This document shows positions 3,102-32,972 of a DNA stretch of 54,757 bases, piece by piece. The stretch comes from an uncultured Candidatus Saccharibacteria bacterium (GTDB taxonomy: Bacteria; Patescibacteriota; Minisyncoccia; Phycocordibacterales; UBA918): assembly GCA_964624165.1 (NCBI GenBank), contig CAZUWG010000001.1:41296-96052 (forward strand), read 5' to 3'. Positions within the stretch are counted from its first letter, which is position 1. Each line of letters opens with the position of its first letter. The notes under the pieces were generated by a model that did not search any database, was not told the DNA's origin, and saw only the letters and a program-made list of their open reading frames with translations. A program made the position numbers and the translations under genes.

Positions 3102-3174
3102 GCCACCTTAGCTCAGTTGGTAGAGCAACGGATTTGTAACCCGTAGGTCGTCAGTTCGACTCTGACAGGTGGCT
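3102..3174 (+). tRNA. tRNA-Thr (anticodon UGU), no encoded CCA
   Basis: Hand-folded cloverleaf: acceptor GCCACCT/AGGTGGC, D arm GCTC-AGTTGGTA-GAGC, anticodon loop TT-TGT-AA, T arm GTCAG-TTCGACT-CTGAC, discriminator T. Confidence 0.9.
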
Positions 3175-3289
3175 CTGAGGGTTTTATATACGGTCCTATA
3201 AATACCAGTAGTTGAGCATCCGGGCTACTTTTACGTTTTTGCGCCTTTTATTTCTCTTAAGATTGGCTATACTTTAACTACACGTCACT

Positions 3290-8701: not shown

Positions 8702-8745
8702 AGGCCGGTGGCAAGCATGCGTGCACGCATGCTTGCCACCGGCCT
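8702..8745 (+). terminator. 44-nt perfect palindrome (20-bp stem, loop tgca) after pheT
   Basis: AGGCCGGTGGCAAGCATGCG-tgca-CGCATGCTTGCCACCGGCCT followed by ttgc. Confidence 0.6.
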
Positions 8746-12327: not shown

Positions 12328-13008
12328 ATGCCACAAATTTCAAAAGACATTATTTTCTACATTCGTGAAAACCCCCTTCAATTTTTTGGTGTCTTCTTTG
12401 TGGTAGTCTTTTTCTCATACCTGTTTCTTTATATAGTCGATTTTTATCCAGAACCAAAAGAACAGACCGCTGTAGAAGAAAGCGAACTCGATGAAATCAC
12501 ACCTGACCGAGACATTCTTTCAGGAGTGGAGGTAACCTCGGATACAAGCAAGGAAGTGAATACTCAGTCTGGTGAATTGCCGATCAAGATCACTTTTGAG
12601 AGCCTTTCGCGTACTGTGACAGTACTCAACTCAGCCTCGGCAGATCTGGCAACACTTGAGGCAGACCTTCAAAAAGGTGTGATTCGCCACCCTGACTCAG
12701 TAAAGCTCGGTGAAAAAGGAAATGTGGTGATCTTGGGTCACTCAAGCTACCTACCAAATGTAATGAACAAAAATTACCAGGCATTTAATGGTATTCAAGA
12801 CTTGATGTGGGGAGACACTATCAGGGTCGCTTCTCTTGATAAGGTATATGTTTATCGTGTGGAGCGCGTGTATAAAGCCACTACAGACGAAGTCGTGCCG
12901 GTAGAGGGTAATGAAAAGACATTGACACTTGTCACTTGCAACGTGTTTGGGGCTAAAGAAGACCGATATATCCTTGAAGCGACGCTGCAGGAGGTAAAAG
13001 ACGCCTAA
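12328..13008 (+). CDS. sortase-family transpeptidase (226 aa)
   Basis: N-terminal TM anchor. Conserved His (VVILGHSSY), TLxTC catalytic Cys (TLVTCN, Cys codon 12936-12938), downstream Arg (RYILEATL). Confidence 0.85.
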   Translation: MPQISKDIIFYIRENPLQFFGVFFVVVFFSYLFLYIVDFYPEPKEQTAVEESELDEITPDRDILSGVEVTSDTSKEVNTQSGELPIKITFESLSRTVTVLNSASADLATLEADLQKGVIRHPDSVKLGEKGNVVILGHSSYLPNVMNKNYQAFNGIQDLMWGDTIRVASLDKVYVYRVERVYKATTDEVVPVEGNEKTLTLVTCNVFGAKEDRYILEATLQEVKDA

Positions 13009-13013
13009 ATATA

Positions 13014-13041
13014 TTGACAAAAATATAAATCGTGCTATACT
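13014..13041 (+). promoter_or_regulatory. near-consensus promoter TTGACA-N16-(TGc)TATACT immediately after the sortase stop
   Basis: Read directly. Predicted TSS ~13048. Confidence 0.5.
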
Positions 13042-13135
13042 TTCTTTAATCTTTAAAAGTGGTGTACAGTACACCATAAGGCGCGTTCTCTCAACTACAT
13101 ATCAGTTCCTCTCTGCTTAAGCTTGGTCGCTTGAG

Positions 13136-13179
13136 GCGGGTGGATTTTTTATAACGTGCGTTATAAAAAATCCACCCGC
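13136..13179 (+). repeat. perfect 20-bp inverted repeat (GCGGGTGGATTTTTTATAAC-gtgc-GTTATAAAAAATCCACCCGC)
   Basis: Read directly. The ORF-track GTG start at 13156 lies in its loop. Confidence 0.8.
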
Positions 13180-13196
13180 ATGGTGTGGGTAGCTCG

Positions 13197-13240
13197 CTTG
13201 GGCGTCGAATGTTTTCGCATGAAAACATTCGACGCCCAAG
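13197..13240 (+). repeat. second perfect 20-bp inverted repeat (CTTGGGCGTCGAATGTTTTC-gcat-GAAAACATTCGACGCCCAAG)
   Basis: Read directly. Lies 17 nt after the first hairpin and 41 nt before the SD-preceded ATG at 13282. Confidence 0.8.
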
Positions 13241-13281
13241 AAGGGGCATGTGAAAATCACAATTCAAAGAAGGAGGACATT

Positions 13282-13899
13282 ATGTCCAACAGCTTCATTA
13301 GTTGCGTCATGGCGGTCGCTTTCGCTGGGGTCGGCTTCGTCGCCGACCCAGCCGCGCTCTTCGAGCGTGGCGCGCTGACGGTCTCGACCGCCGTGGCCTG
13401 TGATAGCGCCTGCCAAGTCGCCGCTTGGCAGGCAACGCGTGATCCCTACAAGGATCGGACTGCGCCGAGGCAGGTAGATACCTGTGTGCGCATCTTGGCG
13501 TCCGACAGGTATGCCATGATGTCAGAAGTCGTTCTGGTGGCTGGGGCGGATCCGCAGAATGGCCGAGAAATTACCTCGCTTGGGCGTGGTAATGGGTTCG
13601 CATATCGCGAGCCCAATCAGCCGGCCGGTACGGCGGACGTTTACGTCCGTGAATTCTGCTTCAATGGCCGTTTGATTGACGGTCTCGACACCATCACGTT
13701 CTGCAACGGGATGAACCCTGGTGACGGAAATCACCACACTCTGTCGTTGCATGATGACAGCGGGGCATTGCTCCGCCGTTTGAAAGAGACAGGCCAGGCG
13801 GGTGATTATCTCTCGTTGCTGGGGAGCAAGCGCTCCTACACTGCGCCGGTCGCAACTTTCTTCACAGCGACGAGGTATCAAAGCCGTTTTGGCAGGTAG
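13282..13899 (+). CDS. hypothetical secreted protein, compositionally foreign (205 aa)
   Basis: Strong SD (AAGGAGG, 5 nt before the ATG). Signal-peptide-like N-terminus (SFISCVMAVAFAGVGFVADPAA). GC3-rich codons. Hand count of 326/540 G+C over 13321-13860. No family recognised. Confidence 0.6.
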   Translation: MSNSFISCVMAVAFAGVGFVADPAALFERGALTVSTAVACDSACQVAAWQATRDPYKDRTAPRQVDTCVRILASDRYAMMSEVVLVAGADPQNGREITSLGRGNGFAYREPNQPAGTADVYVREFCFNGRLIDGLDTITFCNGMNPGDGNHHTLSLHDDSGALLRRLKETGQAGDYLSLLGSKRSYTAPVATFFTATRYQSRFGR

Positions 13900-13906
13900 A
13901 GAAATT

Positions 13907-13930
13907 GGGAAATGCGTTCGCGCGTTTCCC
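13907..13930 (+). terminator. hairpin GGGAAATGCG-ttcg-CGCGTTTCCC after the high-GC ORF
   Basis: 10-bp stem with one G-U pair. Downstream is only weakly T-rich. Confidence 0.4.
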
Positions 13931-14093
13931 ACCCTTATTATTCTTGCGTACTAGGTGAAAAAGTCTGAAAGACTTTTGCAAGACTTTGCCAAATAATTCT
14001 TTAGAATTATCGGCAAAGTGTACAGCACCTGTAAGGTGTAGGTAAGAATATCGGGGTTTATTAAAAAATTATCAATTTTTATTCAATATATTT

Positions 14094-16277
14094 ATGATGA
14101 CAACAACATTCAATAAAGTGGCCTTTAGTCTCGTACTCGTCGCATTTGCATTTGGTATTTTTACCTATGTGAGTCAACAAACCAACTTACTTAATGAAGC
14201 ACTTGCTGTTGGTTCGGGAGCAGGTGATGGCGGCTGTTGCGGCGGCGGTTCTGACAATGGCGGCGGTCACGGAAACAACGGTGACCGCGGAGACAACTAT
14301 AATGACTACAACTACCCTAAGGCAGTTTGTGTTATTACCGCGTCTGCGACGTCAGTAGCAGCAGGTGATACCTACACAATCCGATGGAACGGTTCGTATG
14401 GTGCTTTTAAGTACAACGGCGTAAACGTCGGTGATACAGGTTCACGCACTATCACTATGAGGGCAAATGAAACGTCTCGCACTTTTACGTTGACCGGACA
14501 AGGCTTTGACAGCTCGTGTTCAGCAAAAGTAACGGTAAAAAAGAAAGCGGAACCTGCGCCAGTTTGTGAGTCATTTACGATTGCACCAAAGCAGCTTCCA
14601 GCAACTGGAGGCAAGGTAAAGCTTACCTGGGCTACTAAGAACGCGACTAAAGTAACAATCAACAACGGTATCGGCGAAGTAGGTCACGTCACAAATCTTT
14701 CAGGGCGTGGTGAAGATATTGCAGCAAATAATACTACTTCACCAAAAAAGCACACTTACGTACTTACAGCTCACAATGCTGAAGGAAAAAAAGTAAGCTG
14801 TTCTGCTTCTGTAACCGTAAAGGGTAAGGAAGTTGTCGTGCCGAAAGTAATACCAAAGTGTGACTCTTTCTCTATAGATAAAGCGAAAGTATATCCGGGA
14901 GGCAAGGTGACACTGACTTGGAAAACAACAAACGCGACTAAAGTAACGATCAACAACGGTATTGGTCAGGTAGGTCATGAGACAAATCTCTCTGGCCGTC
15001 CACACACCATGCCAAACAGTATCGGCACCTACACCTTTATTCTTACTGCTGAAAGCAAAGATGGCGTCAAGCGATCTTGTCAGGATGTAGTTGAAGTGAT
15101 TAAAAAGCCAGTGACTGAAATCACAGGCTGTACAGATAAAGATGCAACCAACTACAACCCGAAAGCTACTAAGGACGATGGTAGCTGTCACTACGCAAAG
15201 GTCGTACCAAAGTGTGACATGTTTACAGTGAACAAGACACAGGTATACCCTGGTAAAGATGTAGTGTTTACTTGGGAAACAACCAATGCTAGCAAGGTAT
15301 CAATCAATAATGGTATCGGGAACGTAGCTGTCGACAACACTCAAGGACGCACTTACACCATGCCAAACAGCATCGGTACCTACACCTTCGTCTTGACTGC
15401 AGTCAGTAAAGATCAGATTATCCGCACTTGTGAAAAGGTAGTGTATGTCAAAAAGCAGCCAGATCACAAAGTACCCGGCTGTACTGATGTAGATGCAACC
15501 AACTACAACCCGAAAGCTACTGAAGATGATGGAAGTTGTAAGTATAAAGAAGTGGAATACCCAAAGTGTGACTTCCTTCGTGTCAATGATGACGAAGTAC
15601 GCAAGGGAACTGAAGTAACATTGACGTGGGGAACTACGAATGCAGATCGTGTAGAAATCAACAACGGCATTGGTCGTGTTGATGAAGATGGTAACTACGA
15701 TGTAGTAATCAATAATGATACCGATTTCGTTCTGACTGCCTACGGAGATGATGGAAAGAAAGACACGTGTTCAGTTGATGTCAATGTTGAATCAGGCGGC
15801 GGCGGTGGTGGTTCACCACTTCCACGTTGTGAATTGAAGGCCTCTGATCGCAAGATCAAAGCTGGAGAACGAGTCACTCTTGAATGGGAAACTCGATTCG
15901 GACGTGAGCTTACTATCTACGAAGGTGATAAAGATGACGGAGACGACATCTATGACACTGACGATGAAGACGATGTAGAAGAAGGAGAGATTACTGTCCG
16001 TCCCACTCGTGATACAACCTATACATTGGTAGTAGAACGAGGTTCACGAGATCGTGAATGTGATGTTGAGATTGAAGTAGAAGATGATGAGGTGACCGTG
16101 ATCGATGACCGAGACCAAACACCGCGCGTGGCTGGTATCACACTGACACAGGTGCCGTACACTGGCTTTGAAGCTGGTCCAGCACTCACACTCTTGTTTT
16201 ACGCACTCTTGGCACTATGGGGATTGTTTGTGGCATATCACTTTGTCATTCGAAAAAAAGAACAGAAGCTCTACTAG
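14094..16277 (+). CDS. modular cell-surface protein with C-terminal sorting-signal-like tail (727 aa)
   Basis: N-terminal signal/anchor (VAFSLVLVAFAFGIFTYV), Gly/Asn-rich spacer, six Cys-bracketed ~70-80-aa repeats. Tail is an acidic stalk, then QVPYTG + hydrophobic helix + IRKKEQKLY. Confidence 0.85.
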   Translation: MMTTTFNKVAFSLVLVAFAFGIFTYVSQQTNLLNEALAVGSGAGDGGCCGGGSDNGGGHGNNGDRGDNYNDYNYPKAVCVITASATSVAAGDTYTIRWNGSYGAFKYNGVNVGDTGSRTITMRANETSRTFTLTGQGFDSSCSAKVTVKKKAEPAPVCESFTIAPKQLPATGGKVKLTWATKNATKVTINNGIGEVGHVTNLSGRGEDIAANNTTSPKKHTYVLTAHNAEGKKVSCSASVTVKGKEVVVPKVIPKCDSFSIDKAKVYPGGKVTLTWKTTNATKVTINNGIGQVGHETNLSGRPHTMPNSIGTYTFILTAESKDGVKRSCQDVVEVIKKPVTEITGCTDKDATNYNPKATKDDGSCHYAKVVPKCDMFTVNKTQVYPGKDVVFTWETTNASKVSINNGIGNVAVDNTQGRTYTMPNSIGTYTFVLTAVSKDQIIRTCEKVVYVKKQPDHKVPGCTDVDATNYNPKATEDDGSCKYKEVEYPKCDFLRVNDDEVRKGTEVTLTWGTTNADRVEINNGIGRVDEDGNYDVVINNDTDFVLTAYGDDGKKDTCSVDVNVESGGGGGGSPLPRCELKASDRKIKAGERVTLEWETRFGRELTIYEGDKDDGDDIYDTDDEDDVEEGEITVRPTRDTTYTLVVERGSRDRECDVEIEVEDDEVTVIDDRDQTPRVAGITLTQVPYTGFEAGPALTLLFYALLALWGLFVAYHFVIRKKEQKLY
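14328..16061 (+). repeat. in-frame tandem coding repeats (six Ig-like modules plus two CTDxDATNYNPKATxDDGSC mini-modules)
   Basis: Modules bounded by C79/C142, C158/C236, C256/C329, C374/C446, C492/C559, C579/C656. Near-identical DNA blocks, e.g. 15129-15188 vs 15480-15539 and ~14930-14960 vs ~14640-14670. Confidence 0.8.
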
Positions 16278-16283
16278 CTAGCG

Positions 16284-16310
16284 CAAAAGACGCCTCAAAG
16301 GCGTCTTTTG
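16284..16310 (+). terminator. hairpin CAAAAGACGCC-tcaaa-GGCGTCTTTTG 7 nt after the surface-protein stop
   Basis: 11-bp stem read directly. Lies inside the upstream part of ORF 16217..17053. Confidence 0.5.
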
Positions 16311-16465
16311 CAGTAGAGCAGACGGCTCCTGCGTCTCAGGCGACAGCAGTCGAGGCTAGCATCCCCGCACCAACGTACAGTAGTGATATAGCGCCAGTGA
16401 ATCTTCCGATTGAGAAAGAAGAAGCCCCACAGGTGATTGGCTATGCTGCTCGTGAGGTGGATGAA

Positions 16466-17053
16466 ATGATTGAAGAGGTGAAAGAAGTGACGACAGAAAC
16501 AAAAGCAATGCATATGCTCGAGCAGCATGCTCATGAGCACCGAGCTTTGATATCAAGTGATGCCTTGCGTGTGATTGTACGAGATTTACCAACAGAAGGA
16601 GAACGTATCACAAAACTTGATGAGCTTATCGCCGAGGCCAAAGCTGCCTATCCAAGCGAAGATGGGTGGATTGTCCTCAATCTTGAGCGACTTGAAGCAT
16701 TGCTGAAAGCAGAAACCAGTGCCGTTCTCGATGTAGACAATGCTACCGTAGGGGTAGGTTCGCTCGCTGAGGCGATTGCCCTTGGCGATCTCGAGGCAGC
16801 ATACGTACTCATTGGTCGACGACCAATGCTGGCGTTGGCAGACGCCGCCGCCGACTTTGATGCGCTCTATCGAATGCGCCAAGGCGGTGACGAGCAGGTT
16901 TCTTCATTACTTGTGTCAACACTTGGCAATCGTAGTGATGAAGAAGTGGTGGCGGTTGTAAAGACGCTCACCAGTGCGCTTGACGGCACATACACGACCG
17001 AAGTTGATGCAGTGAAGGTGGCGATTATGAAAGCAGTGCGACTTCTTTCATAG
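16466..17053 (+). CDS. hypothetical acidic helical protein (195 aa from ATG 16466; frame open from 16217)
   Basis: ATG 16466 is preceded by GAGGTG at 6-nt spacing. The same frame is open back to 16217 and overlaps the previous CDS, so it may be the C-terminal part of a frameshifted/split gene (see findings). Confidence 0.45.
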   Translation: MIEEVKEVTTETKAMHMLEQHAHEHRALISSDALRVIVRDLPTEGERITKLDELIAEAKAAYPSEDGWIVLNLERLEALLKAETSAVLDVDNATVGVGSLAEAIALGDLEAAYVLIGRRPMLALADAAADFDALYRMRQGGDEQVSSLLVSTLGNRSDEEVVAVVKTLTSALDGTYTTEVDAVKVAIMKAVRLLS

Positions 17054-17070: not shown

Positions 17071-17104
17071 AAAAGGGCCGGGAGCATTTGCTCCCGGCCC
17101 TTTT
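17071..17104. terminator. bidirectional terminator AAAAGGGCCGGGAGC-attt-GCTCCCGGCCCTTTT
   Basis: 15-bp perfect stem between the convergent 16466..17053 (+) and thrS (-). Confidence 0.75.
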
Positions 17105-17119
17105 CCTGTACGTTGTTTT

Positions 17120-18865
17120 TTACAACACCTTCGTATCAATCTCGGTCAAGAGATGGTTGGCGGCGTGTGAGAGCTCCATCAGCTCCGAGGTGCCGTCTCG
17201 TTTTTCAAGTGTGACTTGCTTTGCCTCGGTCTCTTTATCACCAATCACAATAAAGTATGGAAGTTTGGCTTGCTTCGCGCCTCGTATCTTCTTGCCCATA
17301 CTTTCTTTACTGTCATCGAGTTGGACACGGATTCCGGCAGAATGTAGCGCTTTATGCACCTCGTGCGCGTACTCGTAGTGCACTTCATTGACTGGAATAA
17401 TCGCTACTTGCACCGGCGCCAGCCAGAGTGGGAAGTTGCCACCAAGGTGCTCAAAGAGTACGGCTGCAAAACGCTCGACAGAACCCATGATCGCACAGTG
17501 AATCATAACGATGCGCTCTTTCTCACCTGCTTCGTTGATGCAGGTGAGATCAAAACGCTCAGGGAGATTCATATCAAGCTGGATGGTTGCTACTTGATGT
17601 TCTCGACCAAGTGAGTCTTTGGCCATAAAATCGAGTTTTGGTCCGTACATAGCCGCCTCTCCCGGTGCTTCAAAATATTCCGCGCCACGTTCTTTTGCAA
17701 TGTCGCGCAGTGCGTTTTCGGCGTTGTTCCAGATTTCCTTAGTGCCTAAATATTTTTCCATTTCACTTGGCTCGTGGAAGGAAAGGCGAACAAGTATCTC
17801 TGAAAAGCCGAAGGTGGCGTAGAAGGTGTCGACCATATCCCAGATGCGGAAGAATTCTTCCTTGACCTGACTGTGTCGGCAAAAGACATGGCTATCGTCT
17901 TGCGTGATAGAGAGAACGCGTGTGAGACCACCCAATTCTCCAGATTGTTCGTCTCGATACACCATGGTGGTCTCAGCATAGCGTTGCGGCATATCTCGGT
18001 AGCTGTGAGGTTTGCGATCAAATATCTGTGTGTGATGGGGACAGTTCATCGGTTTTAGAGCGTACTCCTTTCCTTCTCGGGTGGTGATACGAAAGAGCTC
18101 GTCCGCAAATTTATCCCAGTGGCCAGACTTTTGGTAAAGGTCTTTTTTAGTGATGTGGGGGATGGTGACACGTTGGTAACCATTTTTTTCACGAAGTTGC
18201 CAGATGTAGGTATCTAAGAGATGACGTACCAAGCTACCGTCTGGTGTCCAGAGCGGTAAGCCAGCACCGACGAGCTCTGAGAAGGTAAAGAGATCCATTT
18301 CTTTCCCTAGTTTCCGATGGTCGCGTTTTTTGGCTTCTTCAAGCTGAGTGATATAGGCGTCCAGCTCGTCTTTCGTATCAAAAGCCAAACCATAGATACG
18401 TGTAAGCATCGGGTTTTTCTCATCACCGCGCCAATACGCGCCGGCAATTTTGTCGAGCTTAAAGGCGTCGGTATTGAGCTCGTCTTTCGGACGCTCTACG
18501 TGTCCGCCACGGCAGAGGTCGGTAAAACCGCCGGCAGTGTAGAGAGTGATTGTCTCACCTTTGGCCTGGATTTCATCAATAAGCTCAAGCTTAAATTTAT
18601 TATCTGCAAAGTGTTTGCGAGCATCTTCAGCAGATACTTCTACATGAGAAAAAACGTCCCATTTGTTGAGGAGTTTCTTCATGGTTTTTTGAAGTAGTTT
18701 CAGATCGTCTTCGCCAGGCGTCTCTCCTTTGCTAAAGTCGATATCATAATAAAATCCAGTGTCGGTCGCAGGGCCGAGGGTCAGCTTGGCTTGCGGATAA
18801 TGCTCTAAGACCGCCGCCGCTAAGAGGTGGGCCAGGGTGTGTCGCTTATGTTCGAGAGTGTTCAT
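17120..18865 (-). CDS. thrS: threonine--tRNA ligase lacking the N-terminal TGS domain (581 aa)
   Basis: Begins MNTLEHKRHTLAHLLAAAV (second additional/editing domain HxxxH). Class II core and anticodon-binding domain. The 64 upstream codons in the ORF track are a T-box leader. Confidence 0.93.
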   Translation of the reverse strand: MNTLEHKRHTLAHLLAAAVLEHYPQAKLTLGPATDTGFYYDIDFSKGETPGEDDLKLLQKTMKKLLNKWDVFSHVEVSAEDARKHFADNKFKLELIDEIQAKGETITLYTAGGFTDLCRGGHVERPKDELNTDAFKLDKIAGAYWRGDEKNPMLTRIYGLAFDTKDELDAYITQLEEAKKRDHRKLGKEMDLFTFSELVGAGLPLWTPDGSLVRHLLDTYIWQLREKNGYQRVTIPHITKKDLYQKSGHWDKFADELFRITTREGKEYALKPMNCPHHTQIFDRKPHSYRDMPQRYAETTMVYRDEQSGELGGLTRVLSITQDDSHVFCRHSQVKEEFFRIWDMVDTFYATFGFSEILVRLSFHEPSEMEKYLGTKEIWNNAENALRDIAKERGAEYFEAPGEAAMYGPKLDFMAKDSLGREHQVATIQLDMNLPERFDLTCINEAGEKERIVMIHCAIMGSVERFAAVLFEHLGGNFPLWLAPVQVAIIPVNEVHYEYAHEVHKALHSAGIRVQLDDSKESMGKKIRGAKQAKLPYFIVIGDKETEAKQVTLEKRDGTSELMELSHAANHLLTEIDTKVL

Positions 18866-19068
18866 AGTAGAGATAGTATAATTTTTAAAAATAAATAGCC
18901 CGCGCAAAATCCAAAACAACGTTTGAATTTTGCGCGGGCGATCTAGCCGCGGTTCCACCGCGCTTCCAGGATAATCCTGGCACTTGATTGTACAGATTAG
19001 AAGGTGGTTGCCTTGGGCGCGAGATTCGCTAGCGCCCTGACGGTTGGTAGCCATCACAATCTCTGCGT
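18866..19068 (-). promoter_or_regulatory. T-box riboswitch leader (threonine specifier) of thrS
   Basis: On the minus strand: Stem I with candidate specifier ACC+A (19008-19005) and Stem III CCAGGA-uua-UCCUGG (18966-18980). T-box GCGCGG-UGGAACC-GCG..CGC-CCGCGC (~18933-18963) forms a canonical antiterminator with 7-nt bulge. A competing terminator GCCCGCGCAAAAU...AUUUUGCGCGGGC (18898-18939) is followed by a U-run. Confidence 0.75.
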
Positions 19069-23614: not shown

Positions 23615-23643
23615 AGTATACCACCCGCAAGAACAGCCGACAA
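23615..23643 (-). promoter_or_regulatory. dnaE promoter TTGTCG-N17-(TGg)TATACT ending 6 nt before the ATG
   Basis: Read on the minus strand. The spacing predicts a TSS at or next to the start codon (leaderless). Confidence 0.45.
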
Positions 23644-23671
23644 AATCAGCTTTAGCTGATTTTGTCGACTG
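23634..23671. repeat. 17/18-bp inverted repeat overlapping the dnaE -35 (CAGCCGACAAAATCAGC-ttta-GCTGATTTTGTCGACTG)
   Basis: Read directly, one mismatch. Lies in the dnaE/rnhB divergent region. Confidence 0.6.
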
Positions 23672-23812
23672 TTCCCCTTCGCCTGTCTCACTGTTTTCTC
23701 AAGGGTGCATTTGGCTATTTAGGCTTTTATAGTGCAACCACCCCGGGCTGGCTCCGGTCGCGATGTTTTAAAATAACGTGTTTCCCTGATTTCTGCTACT
23801 AGCACCAAGGAG

Positions 23813-32936: not shown

Positions 32937-32972
32937 AACAGCCGGGCTGGCATTTATGCCAGCCCGGCTGTT
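32937..32972 (+). terminator. 16-bp hairpin AACAGCCGGGCTGGCA-ttta-TGCCAGCCCGGCTGTT
   Basis: Read directly between rpsP and the KH gene. Confidence 0.55.

What the first reader, a model, noticed from the sequence alone, without database searches (positions are those of the whole stretch)
13009..14093. Compositionally foreign secreted-protein gene inserted between the sortase and its putative substrate
Hand counts give 326/540 G+C (~60%) over 13321-13860, with 44/60 in 13321-13380. Sampled 60-nt blocks of the flanking genes give 27/60, 29/60 and 32/60, and the 14041-14100 intergenic block gives 12/60. Codons are strongly GC3-biased (gtc gcc gac cca gcc gcg ctc ttc gag cgt ggc ...), unlike the aaa/gaa-rich host genes. 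The gene has a strong AAGGAGG SD, while most genes in the window have none. The product (205 aa) has a signal-peptide-like N-terminus and several Cys, and resembles nothing I recognise. An imperfect direct repeat brackets the segment: AAAGTGGTGTACAGTACACCATAAGG at 13056-13081 and AAAGTGTACAGCACCTGTAAGG at 14015-14036. They share GTGTACAG..CACC..TAAGG, about 20 matches with indels. This looks like a horizontally acquired cassette from a high-GC donor. There is no integrase or transposase.
Basis: seen in the sequence. Interest (0 to 1): 0.65.

Follow-up and report, generated by a model that had tools for sequence, protein, structure and literature searches.

The report
GC-rich accessory gene in sortase locus
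The GC-rich gene is real, but it is not a repeat-bounded foreign insert: it fills a swappable slot next to the sortase gene in a group of tiny uncultured (CPR) bacteria, and whatever gene sits in that slot is GC-rich, has a strong ribosome-binding site, and makes an unusually tightly folded mRNA.

Summary
The gene at 13282-13899 is the GC maximum of the window (0.61, z about 5; GC3 0.68 against 0.35-0.56). It is the only one of 37 genes with a full AAGGAGG ribosome-binding site.

- The "bracketing direct repeat" is not significant. Each copy lies inside a conserved functional element.
- No integrase, tRNA site or outside donor was found.
- The 205-aa product is a real secreted protein with four invariant cysteines. 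It belongs to a tiny uncharacterised family (19 clusters among 1.84 billion representatives). Every member with readable flanks lies next to a sortase, its putative substrate, or both.

The slot varies between relatives. It is empty, or holds family A, or holds unrelated secreted-protein genes. The closest relative shares the 240-nt leader and signal peptide but has a different mature domain.

Slot genes of all families share three traits:
- GC enrichment
- Shine-Dalgarno sites (23 of 30, against 0 of 25 flanking genes)
- mRNA folding well beyond synonymous-codon shuffles, stronger on the sense strand in 12 of 12

I conclude that the "foreign" composition belongs to a hypervariable, separately expressed slot. 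It most likely reflects selection on the transcript plus cassette turnover within the clade.

The parts
12328..13008 (+). Sortase gene (left conserved flank of the slot)
   Evidence: Pfam PF04203, E 1.1e-19. Syntenic in 18 species-representative genomes.
13014..13041 (+). Own sigma-70-type promoter of the slot gene: TTGACA, 16 nt, TG-TATACT
   Evidence: Matches 11 of 12 consensus positions with an extended -10. Almost invariant in L051 and L053.
13059..13077 (+). Leader hairpin H0 (GTGGTGTAC A GTACACCAT).
   Evidence: Predicted in the MFE fold. Conserved in L051 and L053, with a U.G to G-C change on both sides read by eye from the alignment.
13116..13135 (+). Short leader stem CTTAAGC...GCTTGAG
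   Evidence: Predicted fold. The stem is kept in L051 and L053 with different loops.
13136..13179 (+). Leader hairpin H1: perfect 21-bp inverted repeat with a 2-nt loop
   Evidence: Compensatory changes: GCGGG/CCCGC in the window, GTAGG/CCTAC in L051, GTGGG/CCCAC in L053.
13190..13240 (+). Leader hairpin H2: perfect 20-bp stem at 13197-13240. Its left arm and loop (13190-13220) are a copy of coding bases 13572-13603.
   Evidence: L053 has G>A in one arm compensated by C>T in the other. Similarity to the CDS scores 37 against 18.1 +/- 2.2, reached by 0 of 2000 shuffles. The match to the window's own CDS is 27/31, against 13-19/31 for other family genes.
13270..13276 (+). Shine-Dalgarno AAGGAGG, 5 nt before the ATG
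   Evidence: Read from the sequence. Unique among 37 window genes. Typical of slot genes in other loci.
13282..13899 (+). Slot gene: 205-aa secreted protein of 'family A' with four invariant Cys. Residues 1-39 are the signal-peptide region; the mature part starts around C40.
   Evidence: 23 homologues at 50-69% identity. Mean identity by codon position is 0.71/0.76/0.36. AlphaFold model has pLDDT 77.8 and pTM 0.70. The mRNA folds about 45 kcal/mol better than synonymous-codon shuffles.
13906..13931 (+). Terminator-like hairpin (11 pairs) followed by a U-rich tail
13956..14019 (+). Two further hairpins in the AT-rich spacer (13956-13980 and 13983-14019). The second is a window-specific rearrangement of the left arm of the substrate-leader hairpin.
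14020..14051 (+). Loop (GTAC...GGTGTAGG) and right arm (GTGTAGGTAAGAATA, 14036-14050) of a clade-wide conserved RNA hairpin upstream of the substrate gene. This is the right conserved border of the slot.
   Evidence: The 15-mer occurs upstream of the substrate gene in about 22 loci. Hairpin covariation: 93.7% of cells paired, 4 pairs changed on both sides, 0 of 500 shuffles reach this.
14094..16277 (+). Putative sortase substrate (right flank): signal peptide, GGCCGG motif, repeats, VPYTG, a TM helix and a basic tail
   Evidence: Translation. Syntenic homologues.

Best explanation
The region 13009-14093 is not an insertion scar. It is the resident transcription unit of a conserved accessory slot in the sortase locus of a Paceibacteria-type CPR bacterium. 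The unit has its own promoter, a leader of about 235 nt built from conserved hairpins, a strong Shine-Dalgarno site, a 205-aa ORF and a terminator hairpin.

Shown:
- The ORF encodes a real protein. It has an N-terminal signal-peptide region, a beta-rich fold and four invariant cysteines.
- It belongs to a very small uncharacterised family. The 13 distinct members with readable flanks lie next to a sortase gene, the substrate-type gene, or both.
- The slot varies between lineages. It can be empty, hold family A, or hold several unrelated secreted-protein genes.
- In the closest relative the leader and signal peptide are retained while the mature domain differs.
- Slot genes of all families share GC/GC3 enrichment, SD-led initiation in genomes that otherwise lack SD sites, and mRNA folding energy far beyond synonymous-codon shuffles. 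The folding excess is larger on the sense strand.

Inferred:
- The composition that looks foreign is maintained mainly by selection on the transcript, for a long-lived, highly structured mRNA. Such an mRNA needs an SD site to be translated.
- This selection is combined with repeated replacement of the coding cassette by recombination among related CPR genomes.
- The protein is exported, forms two disulfides and acts outside the cell together with the sortase-anchored surface protein. It could be an accessory or partner subunit, for example bound through the substrate's N-terminal Cys-Cys motif.
For: Composition.

Real protein family:
- 23 homologues and invariant C44/C68/C126/C141.
- Identity by codon position 0.71/0.76/0.36.
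- AF2 model with pLDDT 77.8.

Slot linkage: sortase, an optional small gene, then family A, then the substrate in L001, L004, L036, L039, L043 and L048. L047 has no sortase but is still followed by a substrate-type gene.

Patchiness: family A is absent from 17 of 18 syntenic species representatives. Their slots are empty (L014, L018) or hold other GC-rich genes.

Leader and signal peptide:
- Leader conserved at 84% column identity in L051 and L053, with compensatory changes in H1 and H2.
- L051 shares residues 3-40 (63% identity, E 1e-11) and is then unrelated.

GC excess recurs: target GC3 against sortase GC3 is 0.68/0.27 (L036), 0.62/0.30 (L026), 0.65/0.40 (L043) and 0.66/0.38 (L008). In L047 it is 0.80 against a host GC of 0.53.

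SD: 23 of 30 slot genes against 0 of 25 flanking genes. In the window, 1 of 37 genes.

Folding:
- The window gene has z of -5.4 and -9.1 against synonymous-codon shuffles. It is the top outlier of 37 genes; the others have mean -1.0, sd 1.6.
- Homologues score -1.7 to -6.0.
- Unrelated slot genes score -1.5 to -10.7. Sortase genes score +1.0 to -2.5.
- The sense strand exceeds the antisense strand in 12 of 12.

Host-like dinucleotide signature.

The right border is a conserved, covarying hairpin.
Against: - GC3 and excess folding are only loosely coupled. L001 has host-like GC3 (0.48) but the strongest folding excess in the family A comparison.
- The predicted structures are not conserved in position (codon-aligned RNAalifold SCI 0.08). 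Selection would have to act on 'being folded' rather than on one structure. A mutational source of inverted repeats is not excluded.
- Arg/Lys and GARP usage are shifted as in proteins of GC-rich genomes. That fits a GC-rich gene pool or biased gene conversion at least as well.
- The domain-swap evidence rests on one short contig (L051). Its tail from about 2580 looks like DNA of another organism.
- No expression, secretion or interaction data exist. The proposed role with the substrate is inference from position only.
Confidence: 0.5

Rival explanations
1. One reading: a recent horizontal acquisition of a cassette from a high-GC donor, not yet ameliorated.
For: - GC3 0.68, R/(R+K) 0.85 and the lowest tetranucleotide correlation in the window.
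- A strong SD in an SD-less genome.
- Nearest relatives by ThrRS (L011, L013, L017, L018, 71-73% identity) and by sortase (L051, 76%) lack family A.
- Family members fall into GC3-high (0.62-0.80) and host-like (0.41-0.57) groups, as if they differed in residence time.
- Some incongruence between trees: L001-L032 is 85% for the target and 68% for the sortase, while L001-L004 is 68% and 78%.
Against: - No donor was found. There are only 19 clusters at E<=1e-3 among 1.84 billion representatives. All members with readable flanks sit at the sortase/substrate slot, in DNA of 38-53% GC.
- No mobility gene, tRNA site or significant flanking repeat.
- The leader, SD region and signal peptide are shared with close relatives.
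- The dinucleotide signature is host-like.
- Target and sortase distances broadly co-vary (Mantel r 0.84).
- The same traits occur in unrelated slot genes of many lineages.
Confidence: 0.2
2. The slot is a recombination hot spot. GC-biased gene conversion, possibly with template-switch mutation, drives GC3, GARP amino acids and inverted repeats as by-products, without selection on the RNA.
For: - The slot is hypervariable and the contigs of the closest relatives break there.
- GC enrichment affects all three codon positions and unrelated families.
- Short repeats occur inside the gene in different reading frames: a perfect 13-mer at 13376 and 13677.
- There is an ectopic copy of a CDS segment in leader hairpin H2.
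- The folds are not conserved in position.
Against: - Excess folding is larger on the sense strand in 12 of 12 genes. A purely DNA-level process does not predict that.
- SD sites are not explained.
- L001 and L032 have host-like GC3 yet L001 has strong excess folding.
Confidence: 0.2
3. The GC-rich stretch is not a protein gene but a structured non-coding RNA, and the ORF is a by-product of GC richness.
For: - Very negative folding z-scores for both leader and body.
- A 136-aa ORF on the opposite strand.
- No Pfam, NCBIfam, PDB or BFVD match.
Against: - Third codon positions are far less conserved than first and second (0.36 against 0.71 and 0.76).
- 46 invariant residues, including Cys, and conserved motifs across 24 proteins.
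- A confident AlphaFold model.
- Signal peptides and an SD site.
- RNA structure is not conserved (SCI 0.08).
- No Rfam match.
Confidence: 0.03
4. Assembly chimera: a GC-rich fragment of another organism was joined into a CPR contig.
For: One relative contig (L051) does appear chimeric after about position 2580.
Against: The same order (sortase, family A gene, substrate) appears in many independent assemblies from JGI, ENA, NCBI and Logan. The junction elements are conserved on both sides.
Confidence: 0.02

Closest known systems
Variable genomic islets (hot spots between conserved flanking genes) in bacterial genomes
   Same: The flanks are conserved: sortase on the left, and the substrate gene with its leader hairpin on the right. 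The content differs between lineages or is absent. Composition is atypical.
   Different: There is no integrase, tRNA or att repeats. The occupants are single small secreted-protein genes. All share the SD site, GC excess and excess mRNA folding. Part of the unit (promoter, leader, signal peptide) is conserved while the mature domain changes.
Sortase-dependent surface-protein and pilus gene clusters of Gram-positive bacteria
   Same: A sortase gene lies next to a large secreted protein with an LPXTG-like signal (VPYTG), a TM helix and a basic tail. A small secreted protein is encoded between them.
   Different: The slot protein has no sorting signal, so it is not a pilin or a sortase substrate. 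It shows no sequence or fold similarity to known pilus accessory proteins.
Polymorphic secreted proteins with a conserved N-terminal leader and exchangeable C-terminal domains (own knowledge: bacteriocin and polymorphic-toxin loci)
   Same: The window and L051 share the leader, SD site and signal peptide (63% identity over 38 aa), followed by unrelated mature parts.
   Different: There is no recognisable toxin domain, no immunity gene and no array of orphan modules. The evidence comes from one short contig.
SD-poor bacterial genomes in which a few genes keep strong SD sites (own knowledge: Bacteroidota, e.g. Flavobacterium johnsoniae translation studies)
   Same: A genome in which nearly all genes lack an SD site, with an exceptional gene that has a perfect one.
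   Different: Here the SD-bearing genes form a positional class (the slot), are GC-rich and have highly structured mRNAs. This was not tested experimentally.

Membership tests
Integrative genomic island / mobile cassette | Integrase, recombinase or transposase gene in or next to the segment | tested here: not met
   The neighbours are pheS, pheT, gyrB, a hypothetical gene, sortase, the substrate, thrS and dnaE. No such gene is present in the relatives' slots either.
Integrative genomic island / mobile cassette | Significant direct repeats (att sites) at the indel boundaries | tested here: not met
   The alignment scores 19 against 16.6 +/- 2.4 for shuffles, and 13-18% of controls reach it. The left copy is the conserved leader hairpin H0. 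The right copy lies in the loop of the conserved substrate-leader hairpin.
Integrative genomic island / mobile cassette | Insertion next to a tRNA or tmRNA gene | tested here: not met
   The only tRNA (Thr) is at 3102-3175, about 10 kb away.
Integrative genomic island / mobile cassette | Atypical composition and presence/absence polymorphism among relatives | tested here: met
   GC z about 5. Family A is absent from 17 of 18 syntenic representatives, and the slot is empty in L014 and L018.
Integron gene cassette | Promoterless ORF followed by an attC site, with an intI gene nearby | tested here: not met
   The gene has its own conserved promoter. The downstream hairpin is terminator-like. There is no intI. 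attC core motifs were only checked by eye.
Sortase substrate / pilin | C-terminal LPXTG-like motif, then a hydrophobic helix and a basic tail | tested here: not met
   The slot protein ends ...FFTATRYQSRFGR. By contrast, the downstream protein has VPYTG, a TM helix and RKKEQKLY.
Family A (uncharacterised secreted slot protein, defined here) | Signal peptide; Cys at positions 44, 68, 126 and 141; REFCF, TFCNG and DGNHH motifs | tested here: met
   Alignments A1 and A2.
Family A (uncharacterised secreted slot protein, defined here) | Encoded between the sortase and its substrate gene | tested here: met
   Window. L001, L004, L036, L039, L043, L048 and L008. L047 keeps only the substrate-type neighbour.
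Any Rfam RNA family (leader or body) | Covariance-model match at gathering score | tested here: not met
   Only tRNA-Thr passes in the window. A permissive scan of 12900-14200 gave only sub-threshold hairpin look-alikes.
Polymorphic secreted protein with exchangeable C-terminal domain | Conserved N-terminal part and unrelated C-terminal parts in close relatives | tested here: inconclusive
   Seen in the window-L051 comparison. L051 is short and probably chimeric downstream. L053-L055 end before the ORF.
Polymorphic secreted protein with exchangeable C-terminal domain | Recognisable toxin domain and an adjacent immunity gene | tested here: not met
   No Pfam or NCBIfam domain. No extra ORF lies between the stop codon and the substrate gene.

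The most novel reading that the evidence does not exclude
The sortase-to-substrate slot of these CPR bacteria is a dedicated expression compartment. It would hold interchangeable, lineage-specific secreted effector or partner proteins, made from deliberately GC-rich, hyper-structured, SD-dependent mRNAs in genomes that otherwise do not use SD sites. The slot borders (the conserved leader on the left and the covarying hairpin upstream of the substrate gene on the right) would double as the homology arms for cassette exchange between lineages. A far more speculative extension is that these transcripts are built to persist or act outside the producer cell, at the interface with the host bacterium.
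Probability: 0.3. Interest if true: 0.75.

Novelty: new variant of a known kind. Interest (0 to 1): 0.58.

Why it matters
CPR/Patescibacteria are thought to live attached to other microbes, and how they recognise and hold their hosts is largely unknown. A hypervariable gene slot wired into the sortase and surface-protein locus is an obvious candidate for host-specific surface functions.

The three shared traits give a simple signature for finding such genes in other CPR genomes: GC excess, SD sites in SD-less genomes, and excess mRNA folding.

The result is also a caution. Atypical GC, codon usage and ribosome-binding sites are usually read as horizontal transfer. Here they recur at one position across many lineages and across unrelated genes. 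That pattern points to selection on the transcript, or to a local recombination bias.

Two conserved RNA elements absent from Rfam also emerge: the slot leader and the hairpin upstream of the substrate gene.

Tried and rejected
- **Flanking direct repeat as an att site.** Not significant, and both copies lie in conserved elements.
- **Flanking inverted repeat (13006-13027 and 14077-14098).** Marginal: 1.85% of 2000 shuffles reach its score, and it is AT-rich promoter-like sequence. Not pursued.
- **Known protein families and folds.** No match in Pfam, NCBIfam, PDB sequences, Foldseek against PDB, or BFVD. Only Ig-like noise at TM about 0.2.
- **ADP-ribosyltransferase-like R/S/E motifs.** Considered by eye and dropped, because there is no fold support.
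- **Species-representative genomes.** Searches for family A found none, with both the profile and the single protein. The exact H1 and H2 leader patterns also found none.
- **Viral contigs.** None.
- **The leader in more distant loci.** nhmmer found it only in L051-L055. Long hairpins upstream of the slot gene were seen only in L008.
- **A conserved RNA structure within the coding region.** Rejected: SCI 0.08, and only the hairpin at 13408-13433 is shared.
- **Diversity-generating retroelement.** Considered for the H2/CDS repeat and rejected. The differences are not adenine-specific and no reverse transcriptase is nearby.
- **Homology between family A and the Tat-signal 'family B' of L009, L010 and L016.** Not detectable (hhalign probability 1%).
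- **A wider gene pool for another slot occupant.** The L013 350-aa protein has only one homologue among 5.8 billion clusters.
- **Literature.** One search for CPR sortase loci found nothing on this locus.
Full report
**1. The observation**

G+C is 327/540 over 13321-13860, 44/60 over 13321-13380 and 12/60 over 14041-14100. This stretch is the GC maximum of the whole 54.7-kb window (0.611 against a mean of 0.466, sd 0.028, z about 5).

The ORF runs from 13282 to 13899 on the + strand and encodes 205 aa. An automatic gene call in the database starts at the ATG at 13180. That start lies inside leader hairpin H2 and is not supported by the homologues or by the SD site.

GC by codon position is 0.58/0.52/0.68. 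The other real genes of the window have GC3 of 0.35-0.56 and GC2 of about 0.37. AAGGAGG sits at 13270-13276, five bases before the ATG. In a scan of the 21 nt upstream of 37 genes, it is the only SD match longer than 5 nt. 31 of the other genes have no match of 4 nt or more.

**2. The flanking repeat is not real evidence of insertion**

It scores 19 against 16.6 +/- 2.4 for shuffles. 18% of shuffles and 13% of same-spaced genomic control pairs reach that score.

More important, each copy lies inside a conserved element.
- The left copy (13056-13081) is hairpin H0 of a leader that is conserved base for base in the closest relatives.
- The right copy (14015-14036) overlaps the loop of a hairpin conserved upstream of the substrate gene throughout the clade.

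So 13082 and 14014 are not indel boundaries.

**3. It is a real protein gene of a tiny family tied to this position**

A word-indexed search of 5.8 billion protein clusters found 23 homologues at 50-69% identity. None is annotated and none has a Pfam domain. An exhaustive profile search of 1.84 billion representatives found only 19 clusters at E<=1e-3.

The alignment shows a signal peptide ending A-x-A, then Cys. It has 46 invariant positions, including the REFCF, TFCNG and DGNHH motifs. In the wider family, only C44, C68, C126 and C141 are invariant. That suggests two disulfides, which is an inference.

In a codon alignment of 12 family genes, mean pairwise identity is 0.71, 0.76 and 0.36 at codon positions 1, 2 and 3. 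This is the signature of a translated gene in this frame.

AlphaFold gives a confident beta-rich model (pLDDT 77.8, pTM 0.70). It has no match in the PDB or BFVD, and no sequence match to solved structures or NCBIfam.

**4. Context**

The host is a CPR/Patescibacteria bacterium of the Paceibacteria type, judging by the titles of the syntenic MAGs.

The block gyrB, hypothetical(-), sortase, [slot], substrate, thrS(-) is conserved in 18 species-representative genomes. In most relatives the substrate gene also covers the part that is p278 in the window.

Wherever flanks could be read, a family A member sits between the sortase and the substrate-type gene. This holds for L001/L002, L004-L007, L036-L038, L039-L041, L043, L048 and, as a distant member, L008. 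Short contigs show only one neighbour. In L047 the neighbourhood is different and has no sortase, but the next gene still has the substrate-type GGCCG N-terminus.

Among the 18 representatives, only L008 has the family. The others have an empty slot (L014, L018) or other genes:
- a small lipoprotein plus a Tat-signal 'family B' protein (L009, L010), or the family B protein alone (L016);
- other proteins of 149-355 aa (L011, L012, L013, L015, L017).

None of these has a Pfam or NCBIfam family. The L013 protein has a single homologue among 5.8 billion clusters.

**5. The closest relatives**

The closest sortases are 76% identical (L051, L052) and 68% identical (L053-L055).

Downstream of the sortase stop, these relatives conserve the window's sequence 13009-13281 at 84% column identity. 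The conserved stretch includes the promoter TTGACA-16-TATACT, H0, a short stem, H1 and H2.

Both long hairpins keep perfect pairing through compensatory changes.
- H1 reads GCGGG/CCCGC in the window, GTAGG/CCTAC in L051 and GTGGG/CCCAC in L053.
- H2 has G>A in one arm matched by C>T in the other in L053.

The leader RNA folds with z = -11.4 and matches no Rfam family.

L051 then encodes a protein whose first 39 residues match the window protein (63% identity, E 1e-11). The rest is unrelated and weakly resembles family B (E 0.005). This is direct but thin evidence that the mature-domain cassette is exchanged behind a retained leader and signal peptide.

There are two caveats. From about position 2580, L051 carries an amidohydrolase gene on the minus strand. 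By eye it also carries a ubiG-like N-terminal fragment in 0.6-GC DNA. So the contig is probably chimeric there. Contigs L052-L055 all end within or just after the hairpins.

**6. The compositional anomaly belongs to the slot, not to this genome**

Family A genes exceed their hosts in many loci. Target GC3 against sortase GC3 is:
- 0.68/0.27 in L036
- 0.62/0.30 in L026
- 0.62/0.49 in L039
- 0.65/0.40 in L043
- 0.66/0.38 in L008

In L047 and L049, GC3 is 0.80 and 0.75 against host GC of 0.53 and 0.45. In L001, L004 and L048, GC3 is host-like although GC2 stays high.

Unrelated slot genes are also GC-rich, at 0.54-0.65 against 0.46-0.50 for their hosts.

Amino-acid usage is shifted as well. R/(R+K) is 0.85 for the window protein against 0.33-0.38 for the sortase, substrate and gyrB.

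Yet the dinucleotide relative-abundance signature, which is normalised for base composition, is ordinary (43rd percentile). The raw tetranucleotide correlation is the lowest in the window.

**7. Two further traits shared by slot genes**

(a) *Shine-Dalgarno sites.* 23 of 30 slot genes across all loci and families have an SD match of 5 nt or more. None of 25 flanking genes (sortase, substrate, gyrB, pheS/T) does.

(b) *Excess folding.* The window CDS folds at -292 kcal/mol. Dinucleotide shuffles give -244 to -248 (z = -7.3 and -4.8). Shuffles that keep the protein and codon usage give -246 to -249 (z = -5.4 and -9.1).
- It is the strongest outlier of 37 window genes. The others have mean z -1.0, sd 1.6 and minimum -5.2.
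- Homologues score -1.7 to -6.0.
- Unrelated slot genes score -1.5 to -10.7. Sortase genes score +1.0 to -2.5.
- The excess is larger on the sense strand than on the antisense strand in 12 of 12 genes (-41.6 against -28.9 kcal/mol on average). That points to the transcript rather than to the DNA.
- The folds are not conserved in position (SCI 0.08). Only the hairpin at 13408-13433 is shared.

**8. Synthesis**

The best reading is a conserved, separately promoted accessory slot whose coding cassette turns over within the clade. Its transcripts are selected to be GC-rich and heavily folded. An SD site would then be needed for initiation in a genome that otherwise initiates without one. That last step is inference.

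The function of the protein is inferred only from its position and features. It is exported and disulfide-bonded, and it lacks a sorting signal. It probably works with the sortase-anchored protein, whose mature N-terminus carries a conserved Cys-Cys motif.

It fails to explain the recurrence across lineages and families, the conserved leader, and the absence of any donor.

Biased gene conversion at a recombination hot spot is a serious rival for the GC component, also about 0.2. It does not explain the strand asymmetry or the SD sites.

**9. An unexplained detail**

The left arm and loop of H2 (13190-13220) are a near copy of coding bases 13572-13603, which encode the TSLGRGNGFAY motif. The similarity scores 37 against 18.1 +/- 2.2, and 0 of 2000 shuffles reach it.

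The window's H2 matches its own CDS at 27 of 31 positions, including positions where L051 and L053 differ. It matches other family A genes at only 13-19 of 31. This suggests ectopic copying or conversion between leader and CDS. The reason is unknown.

Noticed in passing
window 13990-14051; L001 8646-8679 and the equivalent sites in about 20 other loci (alignment A5): A conserved RNA hairpin lies 25-50 nt upstream of the sortase-substrate gene across the clade. The stem is ATATTCTTA...TAAGAATAT and the loop is GTAC..GGTGTAGG. Covariation includes G.U pairs: 93.7% of cells paired, 4 pairs changed on both sides, 0 of 500 shuffles reach this. It is not in Rfam. In the window the left arm is rearranged into a separate local hairpin.
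   Followed up: partly
window 13009-13281; L051 2066-2331; L053 3887-4168: A 240-nt conserved leader (promoter, H0, short stem, perfect hairpins H1 and H2) is shared only by the closest relatives. Folding z is -11.4 and it matches no Rfam family. Contigs of these relatives end inside or just after the hairpins.
   Followed up: partly
window 13190-13220 versus 13572-13603: The left arm and loop of leader hairpin H2 are a 27/31 copy of a coding segment of the same gene. The match is closer to this genome's CDS than to any homologue. The cause is unknown.
   Followed up: partly
window 16217-16277 (A7 run at 16252-16258): The substrate ORF (14094-16277) and the next ORF (16217-17053) overlap in different frames. 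In relatives (L001, L008, L009) they form one ORF. By my reading of the sequence, one extra A in the A7 run would fuse them. This could be a homopolymer sequencing error, a real frameshift or a phase-variable site.
   Followed up: partly
whole window (start regions of 37 genes): Almost no gene has a Shine-Dalgarno site. Several have a -10-like box (TATACT, TACAAT, TAGTAT) ending only about 5-10 nt before the start codon. That suggests widespread leaderless or SD-independent initiation.
   Followed up: partly
window 8702-8745, 17071-17104, 23631-23674, 32937-32972: Long perfect or near-perfect palindromes (16-22 bp arms, 0-2 nt loops) sit in intergenic regions after genes. They are apparently this genome's terminator or stability hairpins. 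H1 and H2 of the slot leader are of the same type.
   Followed up: no
L051 2580-3545: The tail of the closest relative's contig carries an Amidohydro_1 gene and, by eye, a ubiG-like N-terminal fragment on the minus strand, in DNA of about 0.6 GC. It is probably an assembly chimera, but a real junction is not excluded.
   Followed up: partly
L001 7683-7988, L004 7685-7990, L009 3704-3934, L010 8743-8982: A small GC-rich lipoprotein gene (lipobox LSGC or TGAC, G/S/T-rich, conserved C-terminus GETxGPxGTxD) often precedes the main slot gene. The window lacks it.
   Followed up: no
P0021-P0024; L009 4100-4615, L010 9081-9665, L016 8613-9200: Some family A members and all family B slot proteins have twin-arginine (Tat-type) signal peptides. 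Whether these CPR genomes encode a Tat system was not checked.
   Followed up: no
L036 399-3797 and L038 287-3685: In one relative lineage, gyrB carries an intein (PF14890; 1132 aa against 692 aa in the window).
   Followed up: no
window 17120-19057 (-), first 618 nt of the ORF as listed: The 5' part of the thrS ORF as mechanically called shows excess folding (z -4.1, about -31 kcal/mol). The long N-terminal extension may really be a structured leader rather than coding sequence.
   Followed up: no
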